Source: Naegleria gruberi
Taxonomy: Eukaryota
Direction: 5' to 3' (one strand)
Assembly: GCA_000004985.1 (NCBI GenBank)
Contig: GG738888.1
Length of the DNA: 64,000 nt
Shown here: positions 22,451 to 47,485 of the stretch, piece after piece
Position numbering within the stretch: position 1 is the first letter of the stretch
Layout: every line of letters begins with the position of its first letter
Made by a program: the position numbers and the translations under genes
Notes under the pieces: generated by a model
The model's input: only the letters and a program-made list of their open reading frames with translations
The model's database searches: none
Told to the model about the DNA's origin: nothing

Positions 22451-22531
22451 GTTGAGGTGGCCGAGTGGTTAAGGCGCCAGCCTGCTAAGTTGGTGGAGAA
22501 ATCCGCGTGGGTTCGAATCCCATCCTCAACG
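22451..22531 (+). tRNA. tRNA-Ser(GCT): tRNA-Ser (anticodon GCT), type II with long variable arm
   Basis: The acceptor GTTGAGG pairs with CCTCAAC. D-arm GCC-GAGTGGTTAAG-GGC. Anticodon stem CCAGC/GTTGG with loop CTGCTAA. T-arm GTGGG-TTCGAAT-CCCAT. Discriminator G. A T6 run follows at 22532-22537. Confidence 0.9.
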
Positions 22532-24589: not shown

Positions 24590-25984
24590 NNNNNNNNNNN
24601 NNNNNNNNNNNNNNNNNNNNNNNNNNNNNNNNNNNNNNNNNNNNNNNNNNNNNNNNNNNNNNNNNNNNNNNNNNNNNNNNNNNNNNNNNNNNNNNNNNNN
24701 NNNNNNNNNNNNNNNNNNNNNNNNNNNNNNNNNNNNNNNNNNNNNNNNNNNNNNNNNNNNNNNNNNNNNNNNNNNNNNNNNNNNNNNNNNNNNNNNNNNN
24801 NNNNNNNNNNNNNNNNNNNNNNNNNNNNNNNNNNNNNNNNNNNNNNNNNNNNNNNNNNNNNNNNNNNNNNNNNNNNNNNNNNNNNNNNNNNNNNNNNNNN
24901 NNNNNNNNNNNNNNNNNNNNNNNNNNNNNNNNNNNNNNNNNNNNNNNNNNNNNNNNNNNNNNNNNNNNNNNNNNNNNNNNNNNNNNNNNNNNNNNNNNNN
25001 NNNNNNNNNNNNNNNNNNNNNNNNNNNNNNNNNNNNNNNNNNNNNNNNNNNNNNNNNNNNNNNNNNNNNNNNNNNNNNNNNNNNNNNNNNNNNNNNNNNN
25101 NNNNNNNNNNNNNNNNNNNNNNNNNNNNNNNNNNNNNNNNNNNNNNNNNNNNNNNNNNNNNNNNNNNNNNNNNNNNNNNNNNNNNNNNNNNNNNNNNNNN
25201 NNNNNNNNNNNNNNNNNNNNNNNNNNNNNNNNNNNNNNNNNNNNNNNNNNNNNNNNNNNNNNNNNNNNNNNNNNNNNNNNNNNNNNNNNNNNNNNNNNNN
25301 NNNNNNNNNNNNNNNNNNNNNNNNNNNNNNNNNNNNNNNNNNNNNNNNNNNNNNNNNNNNNNNNNNNNNNNNNNNNNNNNNNNNNNNNNNNNNNNNNNNN
25401 NNNNNNNNNNNNNNNNNNNNNNNNNNNNNNNNNNNNNNNNNNNNNNNNNNNNNNNNNNNNNNNNNNNNNNNNNNNNNNNNNNNNNNNNNNNNNNNNNNNN
25501 NNNNNNNNNNNNNNNNNNNNNNNNNNNNNNNNNNNNNNNNNNNNNNNNNNNNNNNNNNNNNNNNNNNNNNNNNNNNNNNNNNNNNNNNNNNNNNNNNNNN
25601 NNNNNNNNNNNNNNNNNNNNNNNNNNNNNNNNNNNNNNNNNNNNNNNNNNNNNNNNNNNNNNNNNNNNNNNNNNNNNNNNNNNNNNNNNNNNNNNNNNNN
25701 NNNNNNNNNNNNNNNNNNNNNNNNNNNNNNNNNNNNNNNNNNNNNNNNNNNNNNNNNNNNNNNNNNNNNNNNNNNNNNNNNNNNNNNNNNNNNNNNNNNN
25801 NNNNNNNNNNNNNNNNNNNNNNNNNNNNNNNNNNNNNNNNNNNNNNNNNNNNNNNNNNNNNNNNNNNNNNNNNNNNNNNNNNNNNNNNNNNNNNNNNNNN
25901 NNNNNNNNNNNNNNNNNNNNNNNNNNNNNNNNNNNNNNNNNNNNNNNNNNNNNNNNNNNNNNNNNNNNNNNNNNNNNNNNNNNN
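24590..25984. other. Assembly gap (1395 N)
   Basis: Contiguous run of n. ORFs composed of X across it are artefacts. Confidence 1.
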
Positions 25985-26454
25985 TGACAATCTGTTATTT
26001 GTGTGGAATTTGATCGCATGTCAGTAGCATTAGAATTACTTAGAGGAAAGTGGACGAAATGGCAATAATCTGATGGCGTGATTGTTGACGCATGCATGTC
26101 ATTTTCCATTTGCTGATTTTTCGCTTTGTTCAATTCTTCCAAAATCGAATATTCACTATCAACATGCATATTAGGATTACTGACATGTGTCTCGACATGC
26201 ATCTTGACAGGTAAGCTCATTACACTAGCTAAACTATCCTTCTTAGATAAAACTCTAAATTGTGATGTTGGCTCTTGATGTTTCTCCACATGAAATACGA
26301 AATAATTATCCAAAAATCTTTCGTTTAATAAAGTCTTTCTTAAACGTTGAGTTTTCAGTTTGTTTTCACGTTTGGCTATTCGCATGGAAGTTCTCAATGT
26401 TTCGTCTATGAAGGAAACATCTCTTTGATTGAGTTTCGAATAAGGTTGTGGCAT
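25985..26454 (-). CDS. Divergent, longer member of the DET-KT-NRI / LFLLQLCCAL small-protein family (5' part only; 3' end lost in gap)
   Basis: The N-terminus, SFIDETLRTSMRIAKRENKLKTQRLRKTLLNERFLDNYFVFHVEKHQEPTSQFRVL, shares the family core motif with the downstream tandem copies. Confidence 0.5.
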
Positions 26455-26767
26455 GTTTTTTTTTAGTTGGAAAGTTTCAAACTTTCTTCATGCACAAGGG
26501 TAATATCGAACAAGTCTGGTTGTGAGCACATTCAAAATGGTCAATGGAAAGATTTTTTAAAGTACATGGTTATGGCATTATCCAAAAAGGGAACATTGAT
26601 GGTCAATTAAGGTTTTTGCACATCAATTCAAAGTTGCCTTGTATAGTGCAATGAGTTCTTCCACAATAATTGTTGGTTAATACTAGCAATCAAAAGTTAA
26701 AAGTTCCATTTTTGAACATTAACTTTAATACTGTTCTGTTGTCTGTTGTAAAAGTCAATTTTTATTA

Positions 26768-27049
26768 TTACAATGTCGCATGAATGAAATTATGCGTTTT
26801 ATTGTTCTGATAATGGCACTCTTCTAAAATAGAAGTTTGATACTTGCTAATTATTGAGGCACATGATTCGTTTCGTTTCTTATCGGTCTGTATGTGCTTA
26901 ATGAAGTTGAGAAAACTTTCGAAAGTACACGTTTCGGTTTCACCACTTTCATCATCTAATAAGAATGTGGAAAGTAGTGGTTTTTCTGCAATAATTCTTG
27001 TATAAATTTCAAGGTTTCCATTCAATTTGTTTGTGAACATTAACATCAT
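26768..27049 (-). CDS. Small hypothetical ORF (93 aa)
   Basis: ORF only. It lies between family members and has no recognised motif. Confidence 0.2.
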   Translation of the reverse strand: MMLMFTNKLNGNLEIYTRIIAEKPLLSTFLLDDESGETETCTFESFLNFIKHIQTDKKRNESCASIISKYQTSILEECHYQNNKTHNFIHATL

Positions 27050-27478
27050 TTTCTGGAAGAAAGGATTTAAAATCGTTCAGCCAAGTTACCATATCAAACA
27101 AATGTGTTCATAAATGCTTCAAACTAATAATGTTCTGCTAATCATTAAGCATTACCGGATAGATTATCATTTTTCTTCTGAAAGATAATCAAATTCAAAC
27201 TTATTAGAGATTGGAAAATAGTGGTATTGTTTCTGCCTCATTTCAGTGTCACTTTGCCAGCATGGAATTGTCACAACAGGATATGGAACTGTGTGCTTAA
27301 TGAAGTTTCCAATGAATGTTGATGAGAATCCTTTCGAATACAATCTGTTTCAGTTTCACTTAAAGTAGCGAGATGGGTAAAACAGAGATATTACTCAAAA
27401 GATTAGTTCTCAAAACACAAGATCCCATTCTAAATCGCAGATATGAAAATCATGAGAGTTGCGACTCAACTGAGATTT

Positions 27479-27937
27479 TTATTGGAAGAAGTTTCTGTTT
27501 TGTCCTTGATCCATAAGAGCACAACACAATTGCAGTAGAAATAAATCGAATTGTTGCTGATGGTTGTGGATAGTGTTTGTAGTTTCTTCTGGTTGTTGTG
27601 TTTCATTTCGAATGATATTTGTTTCGAATAATTGATTTTGCTCGTGGTTATAGTTTGCTGATTGCAAGTTGTTGATCTTTGGTGGAGAAGTGCTAACGTG
27701 TTTAGTCACAATTAATTGTTCACTTTCGAATGATTTGGATCCATCAATTCGAAAGACAACAGTTTCGTCCTTTTCAGGGTTCAAAACAAAGTAATTCTTC
27801 AATAAATCATCATTACACAATTGTTTTCTCAACTCGTGTTTGGCAGATATCTTTACCTTCTTTTGAATTCTATTCAAAGTTTTACAAGTTTCGTCCTTGA
27901 ACATTATTTGTTTCGTCTTCTTATTCGAATTATTCAT
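27479..27937 (-). CDS. Family member A: small basic protein (152 aa), novel tandem family
   Basis: MFKDETCKTLNRIQKKVKISAKHELRKQLCNDDLLKNYFVLNPEKDETVVFRI ... FDLFLLQLCCALMDQGQNRNFFQ. The N- and C-termini are conserved and the middle is variable and Q/H/P-rich. Confidence 0.65.
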   Translation of the reverse strand: MNNSNKKTKQIMFKDETCKTLNRIQKKVKISAKHELRKQLCNDDLLKNYFVLNPEKDETVVFRIDGSKSFESEQLIVTKHVSTSPPKINNLQSANYNHEQNQLFETNIIRNETQQPEETTNTIHNHQQQFDLFLLQLCCALMDQGQNRNFFQ

Positions 27938-28815
27938 CTTTGAGTTATTTTATTTAATATTAATTCAATGTCCAGCACACATGTTTCCATGATCAAAAGT
28001 TTGCCTTTATCAACTGAACCTGCCAAATTGTCCTTTTTGATATTGACAATCAGATGTGCTGCATTCAAACAATCACATTTACAAACTTAAAACGAAAGGA
28101 GATATTCGATATGGAAAATTGCAATTTCATTATGGAATTACGAGACAATTGAGGCTCTTTCAAATTTTGGCTTCATGACCTCGAGGGAAAACACTTTAAA
28201 AGGAATTATCTTTATTTGTCAAATTTTCATGGAAATGAGATTGTGGGAGCTCAATATCACAACATTTAAATAATTACAAATGTGAGAATGGGAAGAACAA
28301 GCAGATTCGACGAAAGGAACACTGAGGTAGTTTGATAGAGTTGATATTCTTTCGTGTGATGATGAACTAAACCAAGTAGCCCACAAGCTATGAGAGTCTT
28401 GGATGGTTTGCTGGTTGTGTTGTTTTAAAAAGAAAGAAAACAATTCATCTATGATATTAATCCACACTTCATATAAAATATCTAAAAATTATTGCTATTT
28501 TCTTAAAGTATCTAAAAATTATTAAAGTAATTTGCCTTGTAATTAAACAAATTTACTATATTGGTTATCATTTTACTTGCTCGTTAGATATCTAAGTTTC
28601 TTGTGATGCGTCCATTATTCGAAAGCCAAATCCTCCATGCATGTAAGCCAAAAAACTGTCATCCTTTCGAATGAACACACTTCAATTTTGCTAAAGCAGA
28701 TCAATAGTGCTTCAACTGATAATTGATTTAATGTTGGGTCTCTTCAATAATAATACGACATACCTAATCAACAAGTGCATTAACTGATGAGTGGGAGAAA
28801 TCTCAATTTACAGAT

Positions 28816-29262
28816 TTATTGAAAATTATTTCTGTTTTCTCCTTGATCTAATTGTGCACAACATAACTGCAGAAGGAATAGATTTAATTGTTGATGGTTG
28901 TGGAGAGAGTTTGAAGTTTCGTCTAGTTGGGGATCATTTCGAATGGTTTCTAATGATTGAACAAGTGGAATTGGCTCTTGGTTTTGATATGATACGTTGC
29001 TGATCTTTGGTGGAGAGGAGCTGACTTGTTTAGTTACAATTAATTGCTCATTTTCGAATGATTTAATGTCATCAATGCGAAAGACTGAAGTTTCGTCTTT
29101 TTCTCTATCCAAAACAAAGTAATTCTTCAATAATTCATCATTGCATAATTGTTTCCTGAGTTCGTGCTTGGCAGACTTTACTTTCTTCTTGTTTATTCTA
29201 TTCAATGTTTTACTAGTTTCGTCTGTGAACATTAGTTTCGGATTCTTTCCATTATTCATCAT
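28816..29262 (-). CDS. Family member B (148 aa)
   Basis: LMFTDETSKTLNRINKKKVKSAKHELRKQLCNDELLKNYFVLDREKDETSVFRI ... LNLFLLQLCCAQLDQGENRNNFQ. Most similar to member A. Confidence 0.65.
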   Translation of the reverse strand: MMNNGKNPKLMFTDETSKTLNRINKKKVKSAKHELRKQLCNDELLKNYFVLDREKDETSVFRIDDIKSFENEQLIVTKQVSSSPPKISNVSYQNQEPIPLVQSLETIRNDPQLDETSNSLHNHQQLNLFLLQLCCAQLDQGENRNNFQ

Positions 29263-30496
29263 GGAATCTTTTTGGTATTTTATTTGATCACGTAATTTGA
29301 GATTTTTGCTTCTGAACCTGTCAACAATTCAGCAAGGACTTTAGCACCACTTTCTATCAAGAAATTTCCAACAGAAAGAGTTGTATAGTTGACAGATATC
29401 AAAATTAAGGCACCTGACATGTGTCATGAGAGGAAGATAAGGTTGAATAAAAACGAAACATGTTAAATTTAGTTTATTTCTTTTTTGTTTATTTCTCGTA
29501 GAAGCTCCTCTTCTTTGCAGACCTCTATTTTCTCCATTACTCTTTAAGGAAATAATTAGTGACTTTCTTTTTAGAAACAAGAGTTTCGGATATCAAAATA
29601 TTAATAATAATACCTTTTCATTAAATAGGCAATCCACATTTTCCAAAAACACTTTAATCATGTAGAAAAGGGAGAATTCATTTATAGACTTTTCAGTCGA
29701 AATTTACCATTTGTTGATTTGTAATTATTCGAAAATGATTTATTTCAGAAATGATGAGTATCCTTTGTTATATTTCACTGAATAGTTTTTCAGAAAAAGT
29801 TTTCCACTATCACTCACTACATGTGTTGAAACACATTGTTGAACAAAGTTCTGAGTTATTTTTAATACTCTTCAATTCCACTTAATAATGCTTTCATTTA
29901 CAATTATTGTACATTAAAATTGTGTTTGTTGATGAATTGATGTAAATTCTTGCCAGGTTTGATGTGACAGACTGATTCGGTCTGGTTGACAATACATGAA
30001 CACACTACTAGCTGTTGATTGTTGATCCTCTAGATTCAATCTATTTGATTGTGGTATTAAAATGTTACATGACCACACCTTTTTTTGACACACATGTACA
30101 TGTAGCTGTTGTGTGCATGTTCAGCAATTTAACAAATATGATAACAATTGAAGCATGCTATATCTCTTTCGAAACCTCCACTATTAACTTTCTTCTAACA
30201 ACATTATTCCGGTGCTACATGTAAGCACACATGGTCAGCATGTTATTTCTTTTTTGTTTGAACGTATTGGAAGTCTACATGTTGTAACCTCAACAACATG
30301 ATGACTTTCTAATATTTCAATTTCACCAAAAGCAGTGAAATGACTCATTTTAAGCAGGCAAATTGCTTTTAAACGATCTAATGAATTTGTAACAGTGGTA
30401 TTATTCAAGATTAGTTTGCCTAAATCTGCCTTCTTCGCGTAATTGACTGGCCGAAAGTCATGGATGAGAAAATTTACAAATCTCCAACTTGCAGAT

Positions 30497-30946
30497 TTAT
30501 TGAAAGCAACTTCTTTTTTGCCCTTCTTGTTGGTGAATGAGTGCACAACACAATTGTAGAAGGAATTGGTTCATTTCTTGTTGGTTGTGGATGGTGTTTA
30601 TAATTTCGTCTGGTTGTGGATCATTTCGAATGGTTTCAGATACTTGTACTGGTGGATTTGGTTCATGGTGATGAGTTGATTGGACGTTAGTGACCATTGA
30701 GTGTTTAGTCACAATTACTTGCTCATTTTCTAATGGTGTGTTTTCAATTCGAAAGACAACAGTTTCGTCCTTTTCAGGGTTCAAAACAAAGTAATTCTTT
30801 AATAAATCATCATTACACAACTGTTTTCTCAATTCATGTTTGGCAGATATCTTTTCCTTCTTCTTATGTATTCTATTCAATGTTTTACAAGTTTCGTCCA
30901 TAAACTTTATAACTTTCTCCTTCTTTCTAATATTCGAATTTTTCAT
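30497..30946 (-). CDS. Family member C (149 aa)
   Basis: KFMDETCKTLNRIHKKKEKISAKHELRKQLCNDDLLKNYFVLNPEKDETVVFRIENTPLENEQ ... MNQFLLQLCCALIHQQEGQKRSCFQ. About 90 percent identical to member E, including flanking DNA. Confidence 0.65.
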   Translation of the reverse strand: MKNSNIRKKEKVIKFMDETCKTLNRIHKKKEKISAKHELRKQLCNDDLLKNYFVLNPEKDETVVFRIENTPLENEQVIVTKHSMVTNVQSTHHHEPNPPVQVSETIRNDPQPDEIINTIHNQQEMNQFLLQLCCALIHQQEGQKRSCFQ

Positions 30947-31379
30947 TGGTTTGAGAGTTTTTTATTTTAATTTGTACAGACCTGTCATCATCAGTACGTA
31001 TGTGAAGCATGAACAATTATAATTTGTAACTTCTAATCTGAGAATTTGAGATTATAGAGTTGAATTTGGCAATTAATTTTGTCCTTTTCAGAGCATCAAA
31101 TTGAAGTGTTTACATGGGTGATACAATGACATCTAACTGAAGTGTTTGACGTGTTTGTGAAATGAAGTTTATTCGAAATTAAACGTAATTTTCTAATTGT
31201 TCCATTCAGGATCAAGTCAAATTTGATTCTTGTTCATTGACTACGGTCCTTTTCATTGATGTTCACTAATCTTAATTTAGATGCCAATTTGAAAAGGCAA
31301 GTAAATGTTCTAAAACTATTGTTTATTGGATGGAGATGATAGCTCTTGGCCAGTTTCGTAAACTCGTCTTGGAAACGAA

Positions 31380-31810
31380 AAATCTTAAAGATTCAGAGAA
31401 ATTATTTCTGTTTTCTCCTTGCTCTAATTGTGCACAACATAACTGTGGAAGGAATAGATTGAATTGTTGGTTGTGGAGAGAGAGTTTGAAGTTTTGTCGA
31501 GTTGGGGATCATTTCTAAGTTGCCGATCTTTGGTGGAGAAATCGATAAAATAATAGAGAAACAATAAAGAGATTGAATAAATTGAGAGTTTATTGAAAGC
31601 ATAAATATGTGGGTGCCGTAGCTTTGTTGGCAGACAACATCTCATGTTGCAGTCCGGATGGCAATTGCCTTAATGATCATCTCCTTATTGTCCTATACCA
31701 AAAATGATTGTTGTTTAATGAAATATCGAAGTTAGTATATTGCTTTGAGTGTGCAATATTAGTTTCGTCTGTTATTCGAATTATTCATTGTGGAATCATT
31801 TTGATACGTA
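31380..31810 (-). pseudogene. Decayed B-type family copy (member D) with internal deletions
   Basis: 31390-31518 aligns to the 3' coding part of member B (attatttctgttttctccttg.tctaattgtgcacaacataactg..gaaggaatagatt.aattgttg...gttgtggagagag.tttgaagttt.gtc.agttggggatcatttc). 31740-31830 aligns to the B start region and 5' flank (gtttcgtctgt...cattgtggaatcattttgatacgtaatttgagatttttacttct). The middle is deleted and no intact ORF remains. Confidence 0.55.
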
Positions 31811-32501
31811 ATTTGAGATTTTTACTTCTTACCCTATCAACAAGCCACCAACTATCCAAAACAAAAGAAGAGCATGTGACCTATTGCATGTGTTGTTGCT
31901 TGATTTCACTGAATAGTTGTCTATATGTTGATCAGTTGATGTGTAATTTGTGCCAATCATCTTGATCCAAAAATGTGAAAGTTGTGTTTTTGAGATAATA
32001 ATTTAGAACTATAACATCTAGATGGGTTACATGTTGATATTCTAGATTCAATCACTATTCAATAATTCTTGGTATGATGTTAAGTGACTGGTTCATCTTT
32101 TTTGAGGCGTATTTGTTGCTGCTGTGCATGTTCAGCTGATATCCATAGCGATGAGGCAACATGCTATCTCATTCGAAACTAGACTTTTTACCAACATTAT
32201 TCGAAAGCTACATGTCAGTCAGTGAAAGGTCAGTCAGCTTGCTGTTGTTATTTCTTTTTTTTGTTAACGAATATTAATCCATCCACATGTTGTAATTTCC
32301 ACGCTCAACTTAACAGCATTCTAATATTTCAATTTCACCAAAAGCAATCATCTGACTCAATTTGAACAATCAATTGTTGCTTTTAAACGATCTAATCTAA
32401 TTAATACATGTGGTATTATTCAAGATTAGTTTGCCTAAATCTGCTAAATTGACTAGCCGAAAGTCGTTGGATTTATGGGAGAAATCTCCAAACTTGCAGA
32501 T

Positions 32502-32954
32502 TTATTGAAAGCAATTTCTGTTTTGCCCTTCTTGTTGGTGAATGAGAGCACAATACAATTGTAGAAGGAATAGGTTCATTTCTTGTTGGTTGTGGATGGT
32601 GTTTATAATTTCGTCTGGTTGTGGATCATTTCGAATGGTTTCAGATGCTTGTACTGGTGGAAGTGGTTCATGGTGGGCGTTATTGACTATTGAATGAGAA
32701 GTGCTGACATGTTTAGTCACAATTAATTGCTCATTTTCTAATGGTGTGTTTTCAATTCGAAAGACAACAGTTTCGTCCTTTTCTGGGTTCAAAACAAAGT
32801 AATTCTTTAATAATTCATCATGACACAACTGTTTTCTCAGTTCATGTTTGACAGACATCTTTACCTTCTTCTTTTGTATTCTATTCAATGTTTTACAAGT
32901 TTCGTCCATAAACTTTAGACCTTTCTCCTTCTTTCTAATATTCGAATTTTTCAT
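32502..32954 (-). CDS. Family member E (150 aa)
   Basis: KFMDETCKTLNRIQKKKVKMSVKHELRKQLCHDELLKNYFVLNPEKDETVVFRIENTPLENEQ ... MNLFLLQLYCALIHQQEGQNRNCFQ. Confidence 0.65.
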   Translation of the reverse strand: MKNSNIRKKEKGLKFMDETCKTLNRIQKKKVKMSVKHELRKQLCHDELLKNYFVLNPEKDETVVFRIENTPLENEQLIVTKHVSTSHSIVNNAHHEPLPPVQASETIRNDPQPDEIINTIHNQQEMNLFLLQLYCALIHQQEGQNRNCFQ

Positions 32955-33243
32955 TGGTTTGAGAGTTTTTTTATTTTAATTTGTATAGACCTGTCATCAT
33001 CAGTTACAAGACCTCCAATATGTAAGCGACGCATGAACCAGATTGTTTTCATTCCTTGTAACGACACATATCTGATGAATTTGAGATTTTTGTTTTGAAT
33101 TGAGTAATTAATTTTGTCCTTTTCAGAGTAGAGACATCAAAGTGTTTCTAAAACAATACCAATAAAATTCCTTATTTGATTCTTGTTTGGTTTTAAGCAG
33201 TTTTTGAAAAATGTTGTATAATAGAAAGTAGACGAAAGTTTGT

Positions 33244-33648
33244 TCAGTTTAATAATTCTTTTATTGATATTGAAGTTCTGACTACTCGTGTAATGTTTCT
33301 ATTAAAATTTGACTTATTCATTAATTGCGAGCTATTTTGATTAGTTTGCCATGTTTCAGGTTTAGTTTCTAATAGTTTCTTTTCTTTTTTTCGTTTTGGA
33401 GGTTTCTTTGTTATTCCCTTCTTGTTGCAGACCTTCCACTTTTCAAGAGTCTCAGTCTTGGTCACTATCATTCTATTAGAAGAATAATTATTGGACGAAT
33501 CCCCTTTCTTTGGTCTTCCTCTTCTTCTTTTCATTGTTTCTTCTACGCCATTACTGTTTTTTGGTGGTGGCGAGAATTCCACCATAGAGAATGTGTGATA
33601 ATTATTAATCTTGTAGGAAGATGCAGATGCTGTATTGATTAGTGTCAT
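33244..33648 (-). CDS. AT-hook (RGRP) basic protein, hypothetical
   Basis: MKRRRGRPKKGDSS is a canonical AT-hook core, R-G-R-P flanked by K/R. A Lys-rich tail, KKPPKRKKEKK, follows. The gene lies inside the tandem family array. Confidence 0.4.
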   Translation of the reverse strand: MTLINTASASSYKINNYHTFSMVEFSPPPKNSNGVEETMKRRRGRPKKGDSSNNYSSNRMIVTKTETLEKWKVCNKKGITKKPPKRKKEKKLLETKPETWQTNQNSSQLMNKSNFNRNITRVVRTSISIKELLN

Positions 33649-34038
33649 TTTTGTTTTTTGAAAAAGAAAATTACATGAAACAGGTTTTCATTAAAAAGGC
33701 AATCCATAAAGTTTCTTTTTAATGGGAGATTAGGTGCATTTCAGTCATGTCCACTTTAAGATATCAACACACATTCTTTGAAATGCTTTCTCGAAGGAGC
33801 ATTTCATGTAATGCAGCTATTTAATACCGTTACATTACAATACGATTGAAAAGGCAAGTAATTGTTCCAAAAACAGTTGGAAATGAAATCTAAATGGAGT
33901 GTTTTAAAGGAGATGATAGCTCTTGGCCAGATTGGTATTTTTATGCCTATGGTTAAACACCCGACCCGGTTATTCAAGATTGAGAAAAATTGAGTGTGGG
34001 TGGAAACTTGGTTTCGAATAATTGTTTATTGGTGAATG

Positions 34039-34485
34039 TTAGTATTCTTGTTGGTATTGTAAGAGTAAGCTGTACAGTTGAAGGAGAAAGATCATTTCTT
34101 GTTGATAGGTAGAATTATCCATTTGTTGATTTGTATTCGAAACTGTGAAATGCTGATGATCCACAGCATGTGTATTCATTTCATCTTGTCTATTTTCTTG
34201 ATTTCTCTCCTCAATACTATTCGATTCTCCAACTAGTCTAACATGTTGAGTTACCACACTATTTCCGATTTTAAACTCTTTATCTATTCGAAAGGTTGTC
34301 AATTGATCCTTCCTATTATCAAAAACAAAGTAATTCTTTAAAATTTCATCATTCTGTAATTGCTTTCTCAATCCTGGATATTTACTTTTTGGTTTCCTCT
34401 TGATAATCTTGTCTGTGGTCTTTACTGTTTCGTCTATTATCGAAAATTGTTTCGAACCTTTCTTCTGGTTTTGACCACTTGGCAT
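34039..34485 (-). CDS. Family member F (148 aa), divergent
   Basis: FSIIDETVKTTDKIIKRKPKSKYPGLRKQLQNDEILKNYFVFDNRKDQLTTFRID ... MIFLLQLYSLLLQYQQEY. It keeps the core motif and the C-terminal FLLQL. Confidence 0.55.
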   Translation of the reverse strand: MPSGQNQKKGSKQFSIIDETVKTTDKIIKRKPKSKYPGLRKQLQNDEILKNYFVFDNRKDQLTTFRIDKEFKIGNSVVTQHVRLVGESNSIEERNQENRQDEMNTHAVDHQHFTVSNTNQQMDNSTYQQEMIFLLQLYSLLLQYQQEY

Positions 34486-34858: not shown

Positions 34859-35269
34859 TTATCCGTCTTCTTCAATGTGATGGAGAAATAGTAATTTTAG
34901 GAGAGCTTTTCGTTGTTCGTTGTNNNNNNNNNNNNNNNNNNNNNNNNNNNNNNNNNNNNNNNNNNNNNNNNNNATTGAAACTCTTCTGTTTCTTAAAGTT
35001 TCGGATGATTTAGTTGCGACTGCATGCTGTTGATCCTGTCCATCGGCAGCTTGGTGTTGCTTAAGATGATATTGGTTCATTATTTTTGGTTGTTGATTGG
35101 TTTCGGCAAGATTACACTGGAAAGTTTGCATGGTTTCGGATTGTTGTGTTGGTGAAGGAAGTCGAAAGTGAACTTCATTTCTCTGAATCCCACTTTGAGG
35201 GTCTAAATTATTGTCTTCCAGACATGCACTAGAATCTAATGAGAAACTAGACGAAAGTTCATCATCCAT
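34859..35269 (-). CDS. Gln-rich hypothetical protein interrupted by a 50-N gap
   Basis: The ORF spans the N-run at 34924..34973. The C-terminus, KALLKLLFLHH, weakly resembles the family Leu-rich tail. The model is unreliable. Confidence 0.25.
   Translation of the reverse strand: MDDELSSSFSLDSSACLEDNNLDPQSGIQRNEVHFRLPSPTQQSETMQTFQCNLAETNQQPKIMNQYHLKQHQAADGQDQQHAVATKSSETLRNRRVSXXXXXXXXXXXXXXXXXXNEQRKALLKLLFLHHIEEDG
34924..34973. other. Assembly gap (50 N)
   Basis: Run of n. Confidence 1.
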
Positions 35270-35641: not shown

Positions 35642-36196
35642 TTATTGATTATTCTTTGGGGGAATAAATTGACCAAACAAAGTTTCACTTAGAGAAAAAC
35701 CAGATTTCTGATAGAGAGCTTGAGCTTTCAGATTTTCATTCCTTACCAATAGACGAACACCTGCCATGTTTAAATTCTTTGCAATTTTCTTAGTTTCGTC
35801 CAGTAGAATACTAGCAATTCCACATCTCCTGAATTTTTCCCTCACAAACAATTCGTCCACATAGAGATAACCATTTTTCTTATTCAATTTTGGAAGAAAA
35901 CATAAACAAATAAATCCACACGCTTCTCTCTCATCATTTTCCACAATTAAGACCCAAAATGTATTGGAAATCATTCCAGTATTTTTCATGTTGTCGAGAA
36001 AGGATTCCAAATGAAGATTTGCATCTTCTTCCATTCGATTTTCCGACTCGAATTGTTCCTTTAATAATACAAGTAGATTTTCATGTAATTTGTTTTGGGT
36101 TGAGTGAATATTTTCATGGTTTGGATTAAGTGGTTGTAATTGATGTATTGTAAAGCTGTTTGATGACATTTTTTTTTGAAGAATTTTGTTGAACAA
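35642..36196 (-). CDS. GNAT family N-acetyltransferase
   Basis: Motif A region LYVDELFVREKFRRCGIASILLDETKKIA (R..G.A acetyl-CoA loop), then NENLKAQALYQKSGF. Confidence 0.65.
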   Translation of the reverse strand: MFNKILQKKMSSNSFTIHQLQPLNPNHENIHSTQNKLHENLLVLLKEQFESENRMEEDANLHLESFLDNMKNTGMISNTFWVLIVENDEREACGFICLCFLPKLNKKNGYLYVDELFVREKFRRCGIASILLDETKKIAKNLNMAGVRLLVRNENLKAQALYQKSGFSLSETLFGQFIPPKNNQ

Positions 36197-36430: not shown

Positions 36431-38005
36431 TTATCTATTTGGTATGTGAGGTGTAAAGTCCAAATCTTGAACGTTATATTCAATCTTATGGATGGTTGTT
36501 TCATATCTATCACCATTCTTTGAAAAGAATGAATTATCCTTTACTCCAGAATAAGATGAATAGTCCACAATGGTGCTTCCCTCAGCATCTCCTGCAATAC
36601 AGAATGATCTGTCGAATGCTTTCAATAATTTATAATCTCCTTCACCTGCATCAGTTTCAAAATATCCTATCGAATTCAACCAGTGACAAAATTCATCCAA
36701 TGTTTTTCTATTCTCAAATATCATTGTATCCAATTTGGTAAATTCATTCTCGTAATCCAAATTTTGAATGAATGCCTTTAAAGTTTCAGTATAGTAGAAT
36801 TTTCTACTCGTGTTACCCTTCTTTAAATCGGAAAAGTAATTGTCAAAGGTCTTTCCACTTGGTCTACTCAATGAGAGAGCATCCAAAACTTGAGAGACAA
36901 AGTGTTGACAATTACAATCGAGTTGGCTATATGTCTTTTTAGCATTAAATGTACAACAAATATCTGTAATTTTCAAGAAGGCATCCATAATTTGATTCTT
37001 GGTTCTCAAAAAACCAAGATCAATAACAGCAATTGAATTGGATGATTCAATATTCTTATCAGTTCTAACACTAATCAGAGAGTTATTGTACCAATCAAAT
37101 TTCCACTCTCCAATCATGATTCCTGTATGGAGAATACCAAATTCAGTAGTAACAATCTTGGACAATACGCTTCTAATAAAATTATTTCCTTGCAATTCTG
37201 AAATGACCAATTTAACAGCAACATAAGGAGGCTTTTCCATCTTTCTTCTATTTGGATTTGCCAAAATTCTACTGCAAAATGTATTGTACAAGAATCTATC
37301 CTTGCATGTTAAATTTTGGGCATCCAAATCCAAATCACCAGTAAGATTAGCACTCTTGAATGATTTTCCTCTCTCATTGAGAGTCTTGTAATATTCAGAG
37401 AGATTCTTTTTACAATGTTCAATTCCTTGTTTCTCCCAATCATTAAGTTTTTCCTCATCAAATGGAGTTCTCGAATCAAAATCACTATCATCCGATGGTA
37501 AATGTACATTATTTGAATTAGTGCCAATATCACTCTGAGTTCCAGTCGTTGGAACAGAATCAAATTGATAAGCTGGATTATATCTCTGTTCCATTGCAGC
37601 AAAAGTATTCTTCCTACCAGAGCCATTCTCAATATCCTTTCTAATCTTGGCCTCAACCACTGAATCCACAAACGAACTCATACTTCCCTGATCAACATCA
37701 TATAATTTAGAAAGCCTTGCAATAATATATTGTTTTTCATCATCAATTGTTGAACGATCTCCGGTAACAATAGCCTTGGCCAAATCCTTAAAAACATGAC
37801 CATGAAACATTGTATTATTGATCAATAACTTCTCAATCAAGGAATTTTGATATTTAAATTCTCTCATCAGATTTATCAAATCATTATTATCACAATTATT
37901 AATTGGCTTATCAGTAATTGCTCGGGTTGGTACAGAATTTGCAGAATCGGAACCCTTTCCTACATTGAATGATTCGAGGGAATCTTGAGAAAAGTAATTG
38001 CCCAT
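36431..38005 (-). CDS. N-myristoylated (MGNYFSQ) LRAT/PLAAT-like (NlpC/P60 superfamily) domain protein, paralog 1
   Basis: Starts MG..(S). The central region FGILHTGIMIGEWKFDWYNNSLISV ... LDCNCQHFVSQVLDAL parallels PLAAT/LRAT H-box (HWAIYVGDGYVVHL) and the catalytic NCEHFV motif. Collinear with the 38853..40367 paralog. Confidence 0.5.
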   Translation of the reverse strand: MGNYFSQDSLESFNVGKGSDSANSVPTRAITDKPINNCDNNDLINLMREFKYQNSLIEKLLINNTMFHGHVFKDLAKAIVTGDRSTIDDEKQYIIARLSKLYDVDQGSMSSFVDSVVEAKIRKDIENGSGRKNTFAAMEQRYNPAYQFDSVPTTGTQSDIGTNSNNVHLPSDDSDFDSRTPFDEEKLNDWEKQGIEHCKKNLSEYYKTLNERGKSFKSANLTGDLDLDAQNLTCKDRFLYNTFCSRILANPNRRKMEKPPYVAVKLVISELQGNNFIRSVLSKIVTTEFGILHTGIMIGEWKFDWYNNSLISVRTDKNIESSNSIAVIDLGFLRTKNQIMDAFLKITDICCTFNAKKTYSQLDCNCQHFVSQVLDALSLSRPSGKTFDNYFSDLKKGNTSRKFYYTETLKAFIQNLDYENEFTKLDTMIFENRKTLDEFCHWLNSIGYFETDAGEGDYKLLKAFDRSFCIAGDAEGSTIVDYSSYSGVKDNSFFSKNGDRYETTIHKIEYNVQDLDFTPHIPNR

Positions 38006-38526: not shown

Positions 38527-38607
38527 TGCAGAAGGTGGGATTTGAACCCACGAAGCTTGCGCAGTAGAACTTGAGTCTACCCCCTTTGACCACTCGGGAA
38601 CCCCTGC
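38527..38607 (-). tRNA. tRNA-Leu(CAA): tRNA-Leu (anticodon CAA), type II, no intron
   Basis: Minus strand: GCAGGGG-TT-CCC-GAGTGGTCAAA-GGG-G-GTAGA-CTCAAGT-TCTAC-(variable arm)-GTGGG-TTCAAAT-CCCAC-CTTCTGC-A. Acceptor, anticodon and T stems all pair. A T5 run lies 2 nt downstream at 38520-38524. Confidence 0.9.
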
Positions 38608-38852: not shown

Positions 38853-40367
38853 CTATCTTTTGAGGAAATATTTTGACAAGTCCAAATCCTTTACATTGTA
38901 CTTGATATTGGTAATACTGGTATCATCATGAAGACCAGATTGAGAAAAGAATGCATTCTCCTTCTTGAATCCTTCCACAGAATAGTCAACCACGACCAAT
39001 CCATCTCTTCCCTTACCAGCAATTACAAACGATCTATCAAATGATTTAAGCAATTGATAATCTTCCTTTCCTTCTTCTGTTGTAAAATGACCTAAATCCT
39101 TGATAAAGAAACAGAATTCATCAAGATCTTTTCTACTTTCGAATTTGATTGACTTCTTTTTCTTGTAAATTGAATCTTGAGCTTTTTGAATCTTGTCAAT
39201 TAAAGCTGGGCTAAAGTAGAATTTTCTTGCCATATCTCCCTTCTTTAAATTTTTAAAATACTTTTCAAAGCACTTGGATTTTGGAGTGACAAGAGAAAGT
39301 GCATCCAAAAGTTCCGAAACAAAGTGTTGGCAATTACAATTCAATTGACCGTACTCCATAGTGGCATTGTATTTACAAACAATGTCTGAAATTTTGAAGA
39401 ATGCACTCAAAATTAAATTTTGATCAATCAGAGATCCCAAATCAATAACAGCAATTGCATTTCCAGAGCCAATATTCTTTTCCTTTCTAACACTGACCAT
39501 TGAATTGTCGTACCAATCGAATTTCCACTCACCAATCAATAATCCAGTGTGGAGGAGGCCAAATTCTGTATTCACTACTTTTGAGACAATGGATCTATAA
39601 ATTTCATTTCCCTCAATTTCTGAAATGATCAACTTAACTTGCATATATGGCTCAGAAGTCAAAACTCTCCTGCTTGAATTACTCAAAATTGGAGCACAGA
39701 ATGTGTTGAACATGAAACGATCTTTGCAGACCATATTTTGAGCATCCACTTCCAAGTCACCTATCAATCCACAAGTTTCGAATTTCTTCTTCTTCTCCTT
39801 CAAAAATTCATAATATTTTACCAAATTCTTCTTGACCTTTTCAATTCCTCTCTTCTCCCACTCGTTCAATTTATCTTGATCGTATGCAGTTGAAATGTTA
39901 TAAAAAGTTTGAGGAGTGACACCTGGATCCTGAGTCTCTGAATGCAAACTTGCTGTTGTTGTTGGAATGGATGAAATATTAATTTTCTTACTTGATGCAT
40001 TCGACACATCCCTTTTAATCTTTGTAATAACCACATTCTCAATAAAACGTGATAGCAAACTTTCCGTGATGGCATAACGAGTGGCATATCTGCTAGCCAA
40101 TCGGTCCCTTTCGTCTTCAATTTTTGATTGATTCTCCTCCAGTATTGGTGCAACAAGTGCAGAGAATATACTTCCAGACATGTCTTTTTCCTTGATGACA
40201 CTGGCCAATTTATTGCTCTTATCCTCGAATTTATAGTGTCTCAGAAGGACGAGCAAATCTTCAGCATCACATTCAGTGATTGGTTTGTTTACTACTTGGC
40301 TAATATCCACAGTAGAGGATTCAAATGATGCAGGCTTGGAGTCAAAAGATGAAGGTTTGCCACCCAT
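38853..40367 (-). CDS. N-myristoylated (MGGKPSS) LRAT/PLAAT-like domain protein, paralog 2
   Basis: FGLLHTGLLIGEWKFDWYDNSMVSV ... LNCNCQHFVSELLDAL. Long blocks are shared with paralog 1: DLD.DAQN..CKDRF..NTFC, VKL.ISE..GN...RS..SK...TEFG.LHTG, CNCQHFVS..LDALSL, DEFC and YNV.DLD. Confidence 0.5.
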   Translation of the reverse strand: MGGKPSSFDSKPASFESSTVDISQVVNKPITECDAEDLLVLLRHYKFEDKSNKLASVIKEKDMSGSIFSALVAPILEENQSKIEDERDRLASRYATRYAITESLLSRFIENVVITKIKRDVSNASSKKINISSIPTTTASLHSETQDPGVTPQTFYNISTAYDQDKLNEWEKRGIEKVKKNLVKYYEFLKEKKKKFETCGLIGDLEVDAQNMVCKDRFMFNTFCAPILSNSSRRVLTSEPYMQVKLIISEIEGNEIYRSIVSKVVNTEFGLLHTGLLIGEWKFDWYDNSMVSVRKEKNIGSGNAIAVIDLGSLIDQNLILSAFFKISDIVCKYNATMEYGQLNCNCQHFVSELLDALSLVTPKSKCFEKYFKNLKKGDMARKFYFSPALIDKIQKAQDSIYKKKKSIKFESRKDLDEFCFFIKDLGHFTTEEGKEDYQLLKSFDRSFVIAGKGRDGLVVVDYSVEGFKKENAFFSQSGLHDDTSITNIKYNVKDLDLSKYFLKR

Positions 40368-40789: not shown

Positions 40790-41536
40790 TTAATTCTTGG
40801 CAGCAGTAGCAGAAGATGTAGCTTGTTCTGCTTCTTCTGGCTTACCCATCATACCTCTGAGTGAATCAATCATATCTAATTGTCTTCTGATGGTATTATT
40901 GTGTTGTCTTCTCAACTTTCTAGCAGAAATCCAAGCCTTTCTAAACTTTCTCAAATTACCAACTTCCTTCTCCAAAATAGCTTGATATTCCTTCAACTTG
41001 GCTGTAGCAGTCTCATAGGTTGTTTGTTGTTCTGTTGTTGTTGTGGATGATCTCTTCTCATATCGGGCCACATACTTTTTATAAATTCTTTGTGCCTTCT
41101 TGTAAGCCTTCTTCTTCTCAACAACCTTCTTATGAGTCTCCTTAACACGTCTGTTCAATTTTTTGTAGCGTTTTTCCAAGCGCGCCAAAGTCTTTCTCAA
41201 ACGTTCCTCAACACGAGTCAAGTGCATGTGCAAGGATTTGCTCTCCTCCGTTGCCAAATATTTGGATGATGAACCTGATGATGAGAATTTCTTCAATAAT
41301 TTAATGAGGGTCTTTTTCATGCGTTTTTGAGAGCGGATGGTTCGTTTCTTGTGGACCACACGAATATTTTCCTTTTTTGCCTCCACAAAATTTATTGTTG
41401 CTGTTGTAGAGAGAAGCACGACCATCAGGAAGAGAGCAATGGTGAGGAAGGTCAAGATGAAAAACTTGTTGCTTCTCATTGTGATGCTCTGACTGCCGTT
41501 GGATGAGATGTGATGTGGCAGCGAGGTGATAATCAT
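40790..41536 (-). CDS. Hypothetical signal-anchored basic coiled-coil protein
   Basis: The internal start MRSNKFFILTFLTIALFLMVVLL (alternative start at 41479) is followed by a K/R-rich heptad-like region. Confidence 0.4.
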   Translation of the reverse strand: MIITSLPHHISSNGSQSITMRSNKFFILTFLTIALFLMVVLLSTTATINFVEAKKENIRVVHKKRTIRSQKRMKKTLIKLLKKFSSSGSSSKYLATEESKSLHMHLTRVEERLRKTLARLEKRYKKLNRRVKETHKKVVEKKKAYKKAQRIYKKYVARYEKRSSTTTTEQQTTYETATAKLKEYQAILEKEVGNLRKFRKAWISARKLRRQHNNTIRRQLDMIDSLRGMMGKPEEAEQATSSATAAKN

Positions 41537-42930: not shown

Positions 42931-43001
42931 TCGGGTGTGGTATAGTGGTAGCATTCCAGACTGTCACTCTGGCGACCCGGGTTCAATTCCCGGCACTCGA
43001 G
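42931..43001 (+). tRNA. tRNA-Asp(GTC): tRNA-Asp (anticodon GTC)
   Basis: TCGGGTG-TG-GTATAGTGGTAGCAT-T-CCAGA-CTGTCAC-TCTGG-CGAC-CCGGG-TTCAATT-CCCGG-CACTCGA-G. Nearly collinear with metazoan tRNA-Asp. A T5 run lies at 43008-43012. Confidence 0.9.
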
Positions 43002-47412: not shown

Positions 47413-47485
47413 GCTGGCGTAGCTCAGTCGGTAGAGCGTTGGTCTAATAAGCCATTGGTCGCCGGTTCGATCCCGTCCGTCAGCA
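47413..47485 (+). tRNA. tRNA-Ile(AAT): tRNA-Ile (anticodon AAT)
   Basis: GCTGGCG-TA-GCTC-AGTCGGTA-GAGC-G-TTGGT-CTAATAA-GCCAT-TGGTC-GCCGG-TTCGATC-CCGTC-CGTCAGC-A. Closely parallels eukaryotic tRNA-Ile(AAU). There is one T-stem mismatch. T-runs follow at 47491-94 and 47498-47502. Confidence 0.85.

What the first reader, a model, noticed from the sequence alone, without database searches (positions are those of the whole stretch)
25985..34485. Tandem array of a novel small basic protein family (DET-KT-NRI ... LFLLQLCCAL): seven members plus one pseudogene, all on the minus strand
Eight consecutive minus-strand units lie 1.3-2.0 kb apart at 26454, 27937, 29262, 30946, about 31650 (pseudogene), 32954 and 34485. 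They encode roughly 150-aa intronless proteins with a strongly conserved N-terminal block: D-E-T-x-K-T-x-x-R-I-x-K-K-x-x-K-x-x-x-K-H-E-L-R-K-Q-L-C-N-D-x-L-L-K-N-Y-F-V-L-x-x-E-K-D-E-T-x-V-F-R-I. A conserved C-terminal block, L/M-N-x-F-L-L-Q-L-C-C-A-L-x-x-Q, is also present. The two blocks are separated by a hypervariable Pro/Gln/His-rich linker. I do not recognise the motif as any named domain. Conserved ends around a diversifying middle, plus birth-and-death dynamics, suggest a rapidly evolving lineage-specific family, possibly a nucleic-acid-binding regulator given the K/R cluster. An AT-hook gene sits inside the array. This is the best candidate in the window for an undescribed system.
Basis: seen in the sequence. 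Interest (0 to 1): 0.8.

Follow-up and report, generated by a model that had tools for sequence, protein, structure and literature searches.

The report
Naegleria-specific small-protein gene array
This is a real tandem cluster of small protein-coding genes in the amoeba Naegleria gruberi, part of a gene family found only in Naegleria and its relative Willaertia; it resembles no described protein family, so its function can only be inferred (probably nuclear regulators).

Summary
The array is real. The window is Naegleria gruberi. On the minus strand lie six open paralogues: starts 26454 (3' end lost in an N-gap), 27937, 29262, 30946, 32954 and 34485. One clear pseudogene sits at 31398-31851.

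Five of the six open genes are already in GenBank as "predicted protein" (NAEGRDRAFT_71130-71133, 71135). The N- and C-terminal blocks are under purifying selection (dN/dS about 0.1-0.3). The linker is merely relaxed (0.6-1.1) and is Gln/Asn-rich.

The family is wider than the array. It occurs on other N. gruberi scaffolds, in N. lovaniensis and in Willaertia magna, including one slowly evolving single-copy group with about 80% identity in the N-block across genera. A scan of 1.84 billion proteins found 15 representatives, none fused to a known domain.

The parts
25985..26454 (-). m1: family member. The N-block and spacer are present; the 3' end, including the C-block, is lost in the 1395-N assembly gap at 24590-25984.
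   Evidence: ORF and translation. tblastn to the other members gives E = 1e-7 to 1e-9. The 95.5% identical full-length copy P0006/L001 is 182 aa and has the C-terminal IFLLLLHYF.
27479..27937 (-). m2: intact 152-aa member (GenBank NAEGRDRAFT_71130).
   Evidence: An allelic copy, P0026, is 97.4% identical and intact.
28816..29262 (-). m3: intact 148-aa member (GenBank model NAEGRDRAFT_71131, which starts at a downstream Met and is 138 aa).
30497..30946 (-). m4: intact 149-aa member (NAEGRDRAFT_71132). It is one of a recently duplicated pair with m6.
   Evidence: The duplicated segment 30241-31093 matches 32246-33128 at 83% over 896 nt. dS is 0.15.
31398..31851 (-). Pseudogene, an m3-like copy. 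The upstream/start region and the 3' third are retained. The N-block is lost, and there is a 52-nt deletion and a frameshift.
   Evidence: Repeat families D5, D7 and D11. Pairwise DNA alignment with the m3 locus. blastn gives 87.7% over 138 nt.
32502..32954 (-). m6: intact 150-aa member (NAEGRDRAFT_71133).
33244..33648 (-). Interposed unrelated 134-aa gene with an AT-hook core (KRRRGRPKKG) (NAEGRDRAFT_71134). It is not a family member.
   Evidence: Translation. hhalign against the family gives P = 0.35. GenBank identity. No Pfam hit.
34039..34485 (-). m7: intact, divergent 148-aa member (NAEGRDRAFT_71135).
   Evidence: Two near-identical copies (P0005 from the 43.5-kb allelic contig; P0028 from an ENA metagenome contig) differ by 1-3 residues and are intact.
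34859..35269 (-). Unit 8: N-terminal extension of a long-form member. It is interrupted by the 50-N gap at 34924-34973 where the DET block should start. Only a degenerate trace with an in-frame stop lies beyond the gap. It is probably a pseudogene, or is partly hidden by the gap.
   Evidence: tblastn of P0009 gives E = 1.9e-8, 47.5% over 80 aa. Frame translations. A syntenic contig, L002, carries an intact long form (P0011) followed by another member.

Best explanation
**Shown.** This is a cluster of genuine protein-coding paralogues in Naegleria gruberi, produced by repeated local duplication and occasional death of copies. The family is restricted to vahlkampfiid amoebae (Naegleria and Willaertia). 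Every member has three parts.

1. An N-terminal module of about 60 aa: Φ-x-F-Φ-D-E-T, a helix, a variable-length basic insert, then L-R-K-x-L-x-N-x-x-L-L-x-N-Y-F-x-Φ, a β-hairpin ending in [FY]-[KR]-Φ, and a third strand.
2. An unconstrained acidic spacer rich in Q, N and S.
3. A short hydrophobic amphipathic helix near the C-terminus (FLLQLCCAL, LDLLQILMQFTD, LLLALLYVLTAD or SFLSSLSF).

**Inferred mechanism.** The proteins act as small modular nuclear regulators.
- The N-module docks onto a conserved partner, which could be DNA, chromatin or a conserved protein.
- The basic insert serves as a nuclear localisation signal.
- The acidic spacer plus C-terminal helix recruits or activates, in the manner of an acidic activation or co-factor-binding motif.
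- Paralogues diversify mainly in the spacer.

The coding status, the family structure and the evolutionary history rest on tool results. The nuclear location, the identity of the partner and the effector role of the C-helix are inference only.
For: **Organism and annotation.** 100% matches to N. gruberi predicted proteins.

**Coding constraint.**
- DNA similarity between the older units stops within about 15 nt of the ORFs.
- dN/dS is 0.17-0.30 in the N-block, 0.10-0.28 in the C-block and 0.6-1.1 in the spacer.
- Copies from allelic contigs (one from a metagenome contig) are 97-99% identical and keep open frames.

**Family breadth.**
- 15 representatives at E<=1e-3 among 1.84e9 proteins, all 103-358 aa and none with another domain.
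- Named sources are N. gruberi (several scaffolds), N. lovaniensis and Willaertia magna.
- The orthologue group P0018/P0031/P0032 keeps about 80% identity in the N-block across genera. It sits in conserved microsynteny next to a tubulin gene.
- The syntenic contig L002 shows two adjacent members at the same genomic position.

**Architecture.**
- The N-block carries +3 to +9 net charge (pI 9.2-10.7).
- The remainder carries 0 to -17 (-4 to -17 in 15 of the 18 members that have a scorable remainder) and has pI mostly 4.1-5.6.
- K[KR]x[KR] clusters occur in 15 of 23 members, against 5-39% of shuffles.
- A C-terminal hydrophobic motif recurs in almost all full-length members.

**Structure prediction.** AF2 gives a helix, a β-hairpin and a strand for the N-module (pLDDT 68, up to 87 at the DET helix), a disordered spacer and a C-terminal helix (pLDDT 76-78).
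Against: - No experiment or expression datum was found. No paper or supplement searched names the genes.
- The AF2 models are low-confidence overall (pTM 0.23-0.25), so the N-module may not fold on its own.
- The invariant residues (D-E-T, N-Y-F) are not typical DNA-contacting residues.
- The basic cluster is missing from the most conserved orthologue group, P0018.
- Several members have no K[KR]x[KR] cluster.
- A basic-plus-acidic modular layout is shared by many unrelated regulators, so it is weak evidence.
Confidence: 0.4

Rival explanations
1. The proteins are intrinsically disordered inhibitors or adaptors. Their N-module is a cluster of short linear motifs that folds only on binding a conserved enzyme. 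One candidate partner is cyclin-CDK, in the manner of the p27/KRP kinase-inhibitory domain: a docking motif, a helix, then an aromatic β-hairpin (compare WNFDF...YEW with NYFVF...F[KR]I). Another candidate is protein phosphatase 1, through an RVxF-like [KR]-V-S-F start.
For: - The AF2 models have pTM 0.23-0.25, yet locally confident helix and hairpin elements. This is typical of conditionally folding segments.
- The motifs are separated by a variable-length insert.
- RVxF-like starts occur in m1 (RDVSF), P0007 (RTVSF), P0008 (KVSF) and P0009/P0011 (RRVSI).
- SPPK and TPxR sites occur in some spacers.
- The small size and rapid evolution resemble CDK inhibitors (general knowledge).
Against: - Pfam CDI (PF02234) is not hit by any of 16 members, even at E up to 10.
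- hhalign of the family profile against p21/p27/p57 KIDs gives P = 0.72.
- The [KR]-V positions of the RVxF-like start are not conserved (QIMF, KLMF, SQHF, TPMKF). The invariant part is instead F-x-D-E-T.
- K-x-L in LRKxL is not followed by the hydrophobic residue of a cyclin-docking motif.
- About 80% identity over 58 aa across genera, with many hydrophobic positions, fits a small folded domain as well.
Confidence: 0.25
2. The N-module is a new sequence-specific DNA-binding domain, and the family are lineage-specific transcription activators in the strict sense (a DNA-binding domain plus an acidic activation domain).
For: - The N-module is basic and the tail is acidic and Q/N-rich, ending in a hydrophobic motif.
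- The predicted helix plus three-stranded sheet is a common DNA-reading layout.
- Paralogue expansion is typical of transcription-factor families (general knowledge).
Against: - There is no fold or sequence match to any DNA-binding domain.
- The most basic stretch is a variable-length insert that is absent from the most conserved orthologues.
- The invariant D-E-T is acidic.
Confidence: 0.2
3. The units are non-functional: chance ORFs in a repeated DNA segment, or a decaying family with no current role.
For: - One or two units are dead.
- No expression data were found.
- The family has no known domain.
Against: - dN/dS is well below 1 in both terminal blocks, although synonymous sites are near saturation.
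- Flanking DNA has diverged beyond alignment, while the ORFs stay open in six copies and in the copies from allelic contigs.
- The N-block is conserved in other genera.
Confidence: 0.04

Closest known systems
Cip/Kip/KRP cyclin-dependent kinase inhibitors (Pfam CDI, PF02234)
   Same: - Both are small, fast-evolving, largely disordered regulators.
- Both have a conserved module of about 60 aa made of an N-terminal docking motif, a helix and an aromatic β-hairpin.
- Both have a variable remainder carrying localisation signals.
   Different: - There is no detectable homology (Pfam negative; hhalign P = 0.72).
- Motif order and spacing differ.
- There is no RxLF motif and no WNFDF/YEW signature.
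- The resemblance is only an analogy recalled from memory.
Small chromatin architectural proteins with a basic binding motif and an acidic tail (HMGN; HMGA/AT-hook proteins)
   Same: - Similar size (about 100-150 aa).
- A basic N-terminal part and an acidic C-terminal part.
- Likely nuclear.
- An AT-hook gene lies inside the array.
   Different: - The family has no AT-hook (GRP) core and no HMGN RRSARLSA motif, as the sequences show.
- The AT-hook gene in the array is unrelated.
Acidic transcription activators (a DNA-binding module plus an acidic/hydrophobic activation motif, Gcn4/VP16 type)
   Same: - A basic module.
- A low-complexity acidic Q/N/S-rich region.
- A terminal ΦΦxxΦ amphipathic motif.
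   Different: - No known DNA-binding domain was detected.
- Activation has not been tested.
- The similarity is architectural only.
Taxonomically restricted ('orphan') gene families expanded in tandem by birth-and-death evolution
   Same: - Same-strand neighbouring paralogues.
- Graded divergence.
- Pseudogenes.
- Restriction to one small clade.
- No annotation.
   Different: None in kind. This is the category the array falls into.

Membership tests
Tandemly arrayed paralogue family evolving by birth and death | Three or more homologous genes adjacent on the same strand | tested here: met
   Six open paralogues on the minus strand between 25985 and 34485.
Tandemly arrayed paralogue family evolving by birth and death | Copies of different ages, and dead copies | tested here: met
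   dS is 0.15 (m4/m6), 0.55-0.84 (m2/m3/m4/m6) and saturated (m7, m1). The pseudogene lies at 31398-31851, and unit 8 is degenerate.
Tandemly arrayed paralogue family evolving by birth and death | Purifying selection on the retained copies | tested here: met
   N-block dN/dS is 0.17-0.30 and C-block 0.10-0.28. Copies from allelic contigs are intact.
Cip/Kip/KRP CDK inhibitors (Pfam CDI PF02234) | Significant match to the CDI profile or kinase-inhibitory domain | tested here: not met
   No CDI hit for any member at E up to 10.
Cip/Kip/KRP CDK inhibitors (Pfam CDI PF02234) | Binding and inhibition of cyclin-CDK | not testable with these tools
   Needs biochemistry or complex prediction.
PP1-interacting proteins (RVxF class) | A conserved [KR]-x(0,1)-[VI]-{P}-[FW] motif in all members | tested here: not met
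   The motif is present only in some members (RDVSF, RTVSF, KVSF). Others read QIMF, KLMF, SQHF, KDF or EFNF. The conserved part is F-x-DET.
AT-hook / HMGA proteins | An R-G-R-P core flanked by basic residues | tested here: not met
   Absent from all family members. Present only in the unrelated interposed gene at 33244-33648.
Any Pfam-A family or solved structure | A sequence or fold match | tested here: not met
Nuclear regulators with a classical NLS | A K-[KR]-x-[KR] basic cluster | tested here: inconclusive
   15 of 23 members have one, against 5-39% of composition-matched shuffles. m7, m1 and P0018 lack a strict match. Localisation has not been tested.

The most novel reading that the evidence does not exclude
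The 'DET...LRK...NYF' module would be a previously undescribed, autonomously functional domain specific to heterolobosean amoebae. It would be either a new DNA- or chromatin-reading fold, or a new docking module for a core cell-cycle or phosphatase enzyme. It would define a new regulator family with an old, slowly evolving single-copy member and a recent N. gruberi expansion, possibly tied to that species' life-cycle transitions.
Probability: 0.3. Interest if true: 0.5.

Novelty: new member of a known kind. Interest (0 to 1): 0.3.

Why it matters
If the inference holds, the family would add a clade-specific class of regulators to Naegleria. Very few transcriptional or cell-cycle regulators have been characterised in that organism. 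It would also supply a new Pfam-type domain with a clear conserved core.

In practice, the result shows that the array is real and coding, and that it is wider than the window suggests. It is also an example of the very common class of taxon-restricted, tandemly expanded genes, and not a new kind of system. The sequences are already public as unnamed predicted proteins.

Tried and rejected
**Searches and tests that gave nothing**
- Pfam on the individual members and on 16 N-modules at E<=10 gave only scattered chance hits.
- A PDB sequence-profile search gave no hits.
- AF2 was run on the 6-sequence and 16-sequence alignments. pLDDT was 58 and 68, and pTM 0.23 and 0.25.
- The CDK-inhibitor idea was tested with hhalign and found no relation.
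- The PP1 RVxF, PIP-box, LIR, D-box and BC-box readings were considered by eye on the alignment. They were dropped because the defining positions are not conserved.
- The C-helix as a tail anchor or transmembrane segment was rejected, because the hydrophobic run is only 10-13 residues.
- The AT-hook gene as a diverged family member was rejected.
- Viral origin: there is no relative in IMG/VR.
- JGI metagenome scan: the first alignment was too diverse and the second found nothing.
- A word-index search with the domain alignment returned only 2 of the known members, so it was uninformative.

**Look-ups that failed**
- Exact-sequence look-ups of m7 and P0005 to fetch the allelic 43.5-kb contig were not on record.
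- Literature: gene IDs and accessions were absent from the full texts and from the supplements held for three Naegleria papers.

**Other checks**
- No tRNA, Rfam or tandem-repeat feature lies within the array.

Full report
**1. What is in the sequence**

The window has about 34% G+C and two runs of N, at 24590-25984 and 34924-34973. The ORF at 30497-30946 is 100% identical to a Naegleria gruberi predicted protein on a 351,708-bp scaffold. Exact look-ups give these GenBank names:
- NAEGRDRAFT_71130 for m2 (27479-27937)
- NAEGRDRAFT_71131 for m3 (28816-29262; the model starts at a downstream Met and is 138 aa)
- NAEGRDRAFT_71132 for m4 (30497-30946)
- NAEGRDRAFT_71133 for m6 (32502-32954)
- NAEGRDRAFT_71134 for the AT-hook gene (33244-33648)
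- NAEGRDRAFT_71135 for m7 (34039-34485)

All lie on the minus strand. A sixth member, m1, starts at 26454 and runs into the 1395-N gap.

Similarity among the units is far beyond chance. tblastn gives 1e-40 to 1e-79 among m2, m3, m4 and m6, and 1e-7 to 1e-15 from these to m7 and m1. There is no other hit in the 64 kb.

**2. Corrections to the observation**

- Inside the stated coordinates there are six ORFs and one pseudogene, not seven plus one.
- The pseudogene (about 31398-31851) is an m3-like copy. It keeps the upstream and start region and 88% identity over the last 138 nt. It has lost the N-block and carries a 52-nt deletion and a frameshift.
- An eighth unit sits just outside the coordinates, at 34859-35269. 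Its translation matches the N-terminal extension of two long-form relatives, P0009 (N. gruberi, another scaffold) and P0011, at E = 1.9e-8 and 47.5% over 80 aa.
- That ORF ends at '...RNRRVS' on the edge of the 50-N gap, precisely where those relatives continue 'IIDET...'. Beyond the gap there is only a weak trace, 'NEKLS*NYYF', with an in-frame stop, and no long-form C-terminal region. It is a probable pseudogene, or is partly hidden by the gap.
- The missing 3' end of m1 is supplied by a metagenome contig, L001. Its 182-aa protein (P0006) is 95.5% identical and ends in ...NIFLLLLHYFPNITFP, so m1 also has the C-block.
- The spacer is Gln/Asn-rich, not Pro-rich. Only the N-block is basic.
- The AT-hook gene is real (KRRRGRPKKG) but unrelated to the family.

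**3. Are these genes?**

- Between the older units, DNA similarity ends within about 15 nt of the ORFs. Only the young m4/m6 pair shares flanks (83% over 896 nt).
- Nei-Gojobori estimates give dN/dS of 0.17-0.30 for the N-block and 0.10-0.28 for the C-block. The spacer gives 0.6-1.1.
- dS is 0.15 for m4/m6, 0.55-0.84 among m2, m3, m4 and m6, and saturated for m7 and m1.
- Copies deposited from smaller, presumably allelic, contigs (P0024-P0026), and P0028 from a metagenome contig, are 97-99% identical and keep open frames.

The units are therefore protein-coding and under selection at both ends. The middle is relaxed and is not demonstrably diversifying. The age series plus the dead copies fit birth-and-death evolution.

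**4. The family outside the window**

A profile of the six members was scored against 1.84 billion representative proteins. It found only 15 at E<=1e-3, all 103-358 aa.

Named members come from these sources:
- N. gruberi on at least five other scaffolds: NAEGRDRAFT_76150, 71658, 72123, 70228 and 53199.
- Willaertia magna.
- N. lovaniensis.

No member is fused to a known domain.

All share one module: Φ-x-F-Φ-D-E-T-x-[KRN]-[TV]-x-x-[KR]-Φ, a variable-length (mostly basic) insert, L-R-K-x-L-x-N-x-x-[LF]-L-x-N-Y-F-x-Φ, a loop of 5-10 residues, and Φ-x-x-[FY]-[KR]-Φ. D, E, T, K, N, Y and F are invariant.

One orthologue group keeps about 80% identity over the first 58 or so residues across genera. 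It comprises N. lovaniensis P0018, W. magna P0032 and the environmental protein P0031. It is single-copy locally and lies beside a tubulin gene in two contigs.

A contig from a related Naegleria, L002, carries orthologues of window genes 40829-41332 (88%) and 38856-40367 (79%). These are followed by an intact long-form member and then a second member. The position of the array is therefore conserved.

Almost every full-length member ends with a short hydrophobic helix motif: FLLQLCCAL, LDLLQILMQFTD, LQTIIQLTD, LLLALLYVLTAD or SFLSSLSF.

No relative was found in viral contigs or JGI metagenomes.

**5. Comparison with known families**

- Pfam gives no consistent hit for any member, even at E = 10.
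- A profile search of all PDB sequences gives nothing.
- AF2 predicts a helix, a short helix, a β-hairpin and a third strand for the N-module. It predicts a disordered spacer and a C-terminal helix. Confidence is low (pLDDT 58-68, pTM about 0.25).
- I considered a resemblance to the kinase-inhibitory domain of p27/KRP (docking motif, helix, aromatic hairpin). hhalign gives P = 0.72, and Pfam CDI is not hit.
- An RVxF-type PP1 motif is present in some members but is not conserved across the family.
- No paper or held supplement mentions the genes.

**6. Most likely mechanism (inference)**

- Each member pairs a basic N-module with an acidic low-complexity remainder. The N-module carries +3 to +9 net charge (pI 9.2-10.7). 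The remainder carries 0 to -17 (-4 to -17 in most members), with pI mostly 4.1-5.6, and ends in an amphipathic hydrophobic helix.
- Classical NLS-like K[KR]x[KR] clusters occur in 15 of 23 members, against 5-39% of shuffles. In the conserved orthologues the cluster lies outside the N-module.
- This layout is that of small modular nuclear regulators: a docking module, a nuclear signal, a flexible acidic spacer and a short effector helix.
- I give this reading about 0.4.
- The rivals are: a fold-upon-binding inhibitor or adaptor of a conserved enzyme such as CDK-cyclin or PP1 (0.25); a strict new DNA-binding transcription factor, which overlaps with the main reading (0.2); and non-function (0.04).

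**7. Verdict**

The family is indeed undescribed at the level of domain databases and literature.

However, the family is wider than the array, and its sequences are already public as predicted proteins. Nothing in the evidence points to a new kind of system. It is a taxon-restricted family expanded in tandem, which is common in protist genomes.

Interest is modest (0.3). It would rise if the N-module proved to be a new DNA- or chromatin-binding or enzyme-docking domain.

Noticed in passing
window 24590-25984 (N-gap); locus L001 1-2536: The 1395-N gap truncates two convergent genes: the Avl9/DENN-like gene starting at 22753 (+) and family member m1 (-). The metagenome contig L001 (ENA ERZ929261) spans the missing stretch. 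It shows the two stop codons only about 25 nt apart.
   Followed up: partly
window 36431-38005 and 38853-40367 (both -), with tRNA-Leu(CAA) at 38527-38607 between them: Two tandem paralogues of about 500 aa (42% identical via L002_g2) with at most a weak PPPDE/peptidase_C97 hit. The related contig L002 has only one copy, so the duplication may be specific to N. gruberi.
   Followed up: partly
window 33244-33648 (-): A 134-aa gene with an AT-hook core (KRRRGRPKKG) and a second basic cluster (KKPPKRKKEKK). It is a singleton in its 90%-identity protein cluster and has no Pfam hit; no homology search was run for it. It was inserted between m6 and m7.
   Followed up: partly
window 34976-35203 (-): The N-terminal extension of unit 8 gives a weak Pfam BORA_N (aurora borealis) hit, E = 0.013, well below the cut-off. 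It is probably chance, but the extension is shared with the long-form members P0009 and P0011.
   Followed up: no
window 31289-31360 and 33846-33937: Two short intergenic matches (27-29 nt, 92-93%), including GGCCAAGAGCTATCATCTCC, lie just downstream of the pseudogene and just downstream of m7. They may be a remnant of a shared 3' flank or terminator region.
   Followed up: no
window 29290-29335, 31042-31093, 31806-31851, 33077-33128: The upstream regions of m3, m4, the pseudogene and m6 share a short element (gene sense AAAATCTCAAATT), 45-135 nt before the ATG. It is a possible common promoter or 5'UTR element.
   Followed up: no
window 22451-22531, 38527-38607, 42931-43001, 47413-47485: Four tRNA genes are scattered among the protein genes: Ser-GCT, Leu-CAA, Asp-GTC and Ile-AAT.
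   Followed up: no
loci L003 7979-10609 and L004 2689-4704: The slowly evolving single-copy family member (P0018/P0031) lies immediately downstream of a tubulin-family gene, and beside a cytochrome-b5/fatty-acid hydroxylase gene, in both N. lovaniensis and an environmental contig. This is conserved microsynteny.
   Followed up: partly
window 35642-36196 (-): A GNAT acetyltransferase gene (Pfam Acetyltransf_1, E = 3.6e-15) lies directly upstream of the array. The exact ORF translation (which starts at TTG) is not in the protein collection, so the real start is probably the internal ATG.
   Followed up: no
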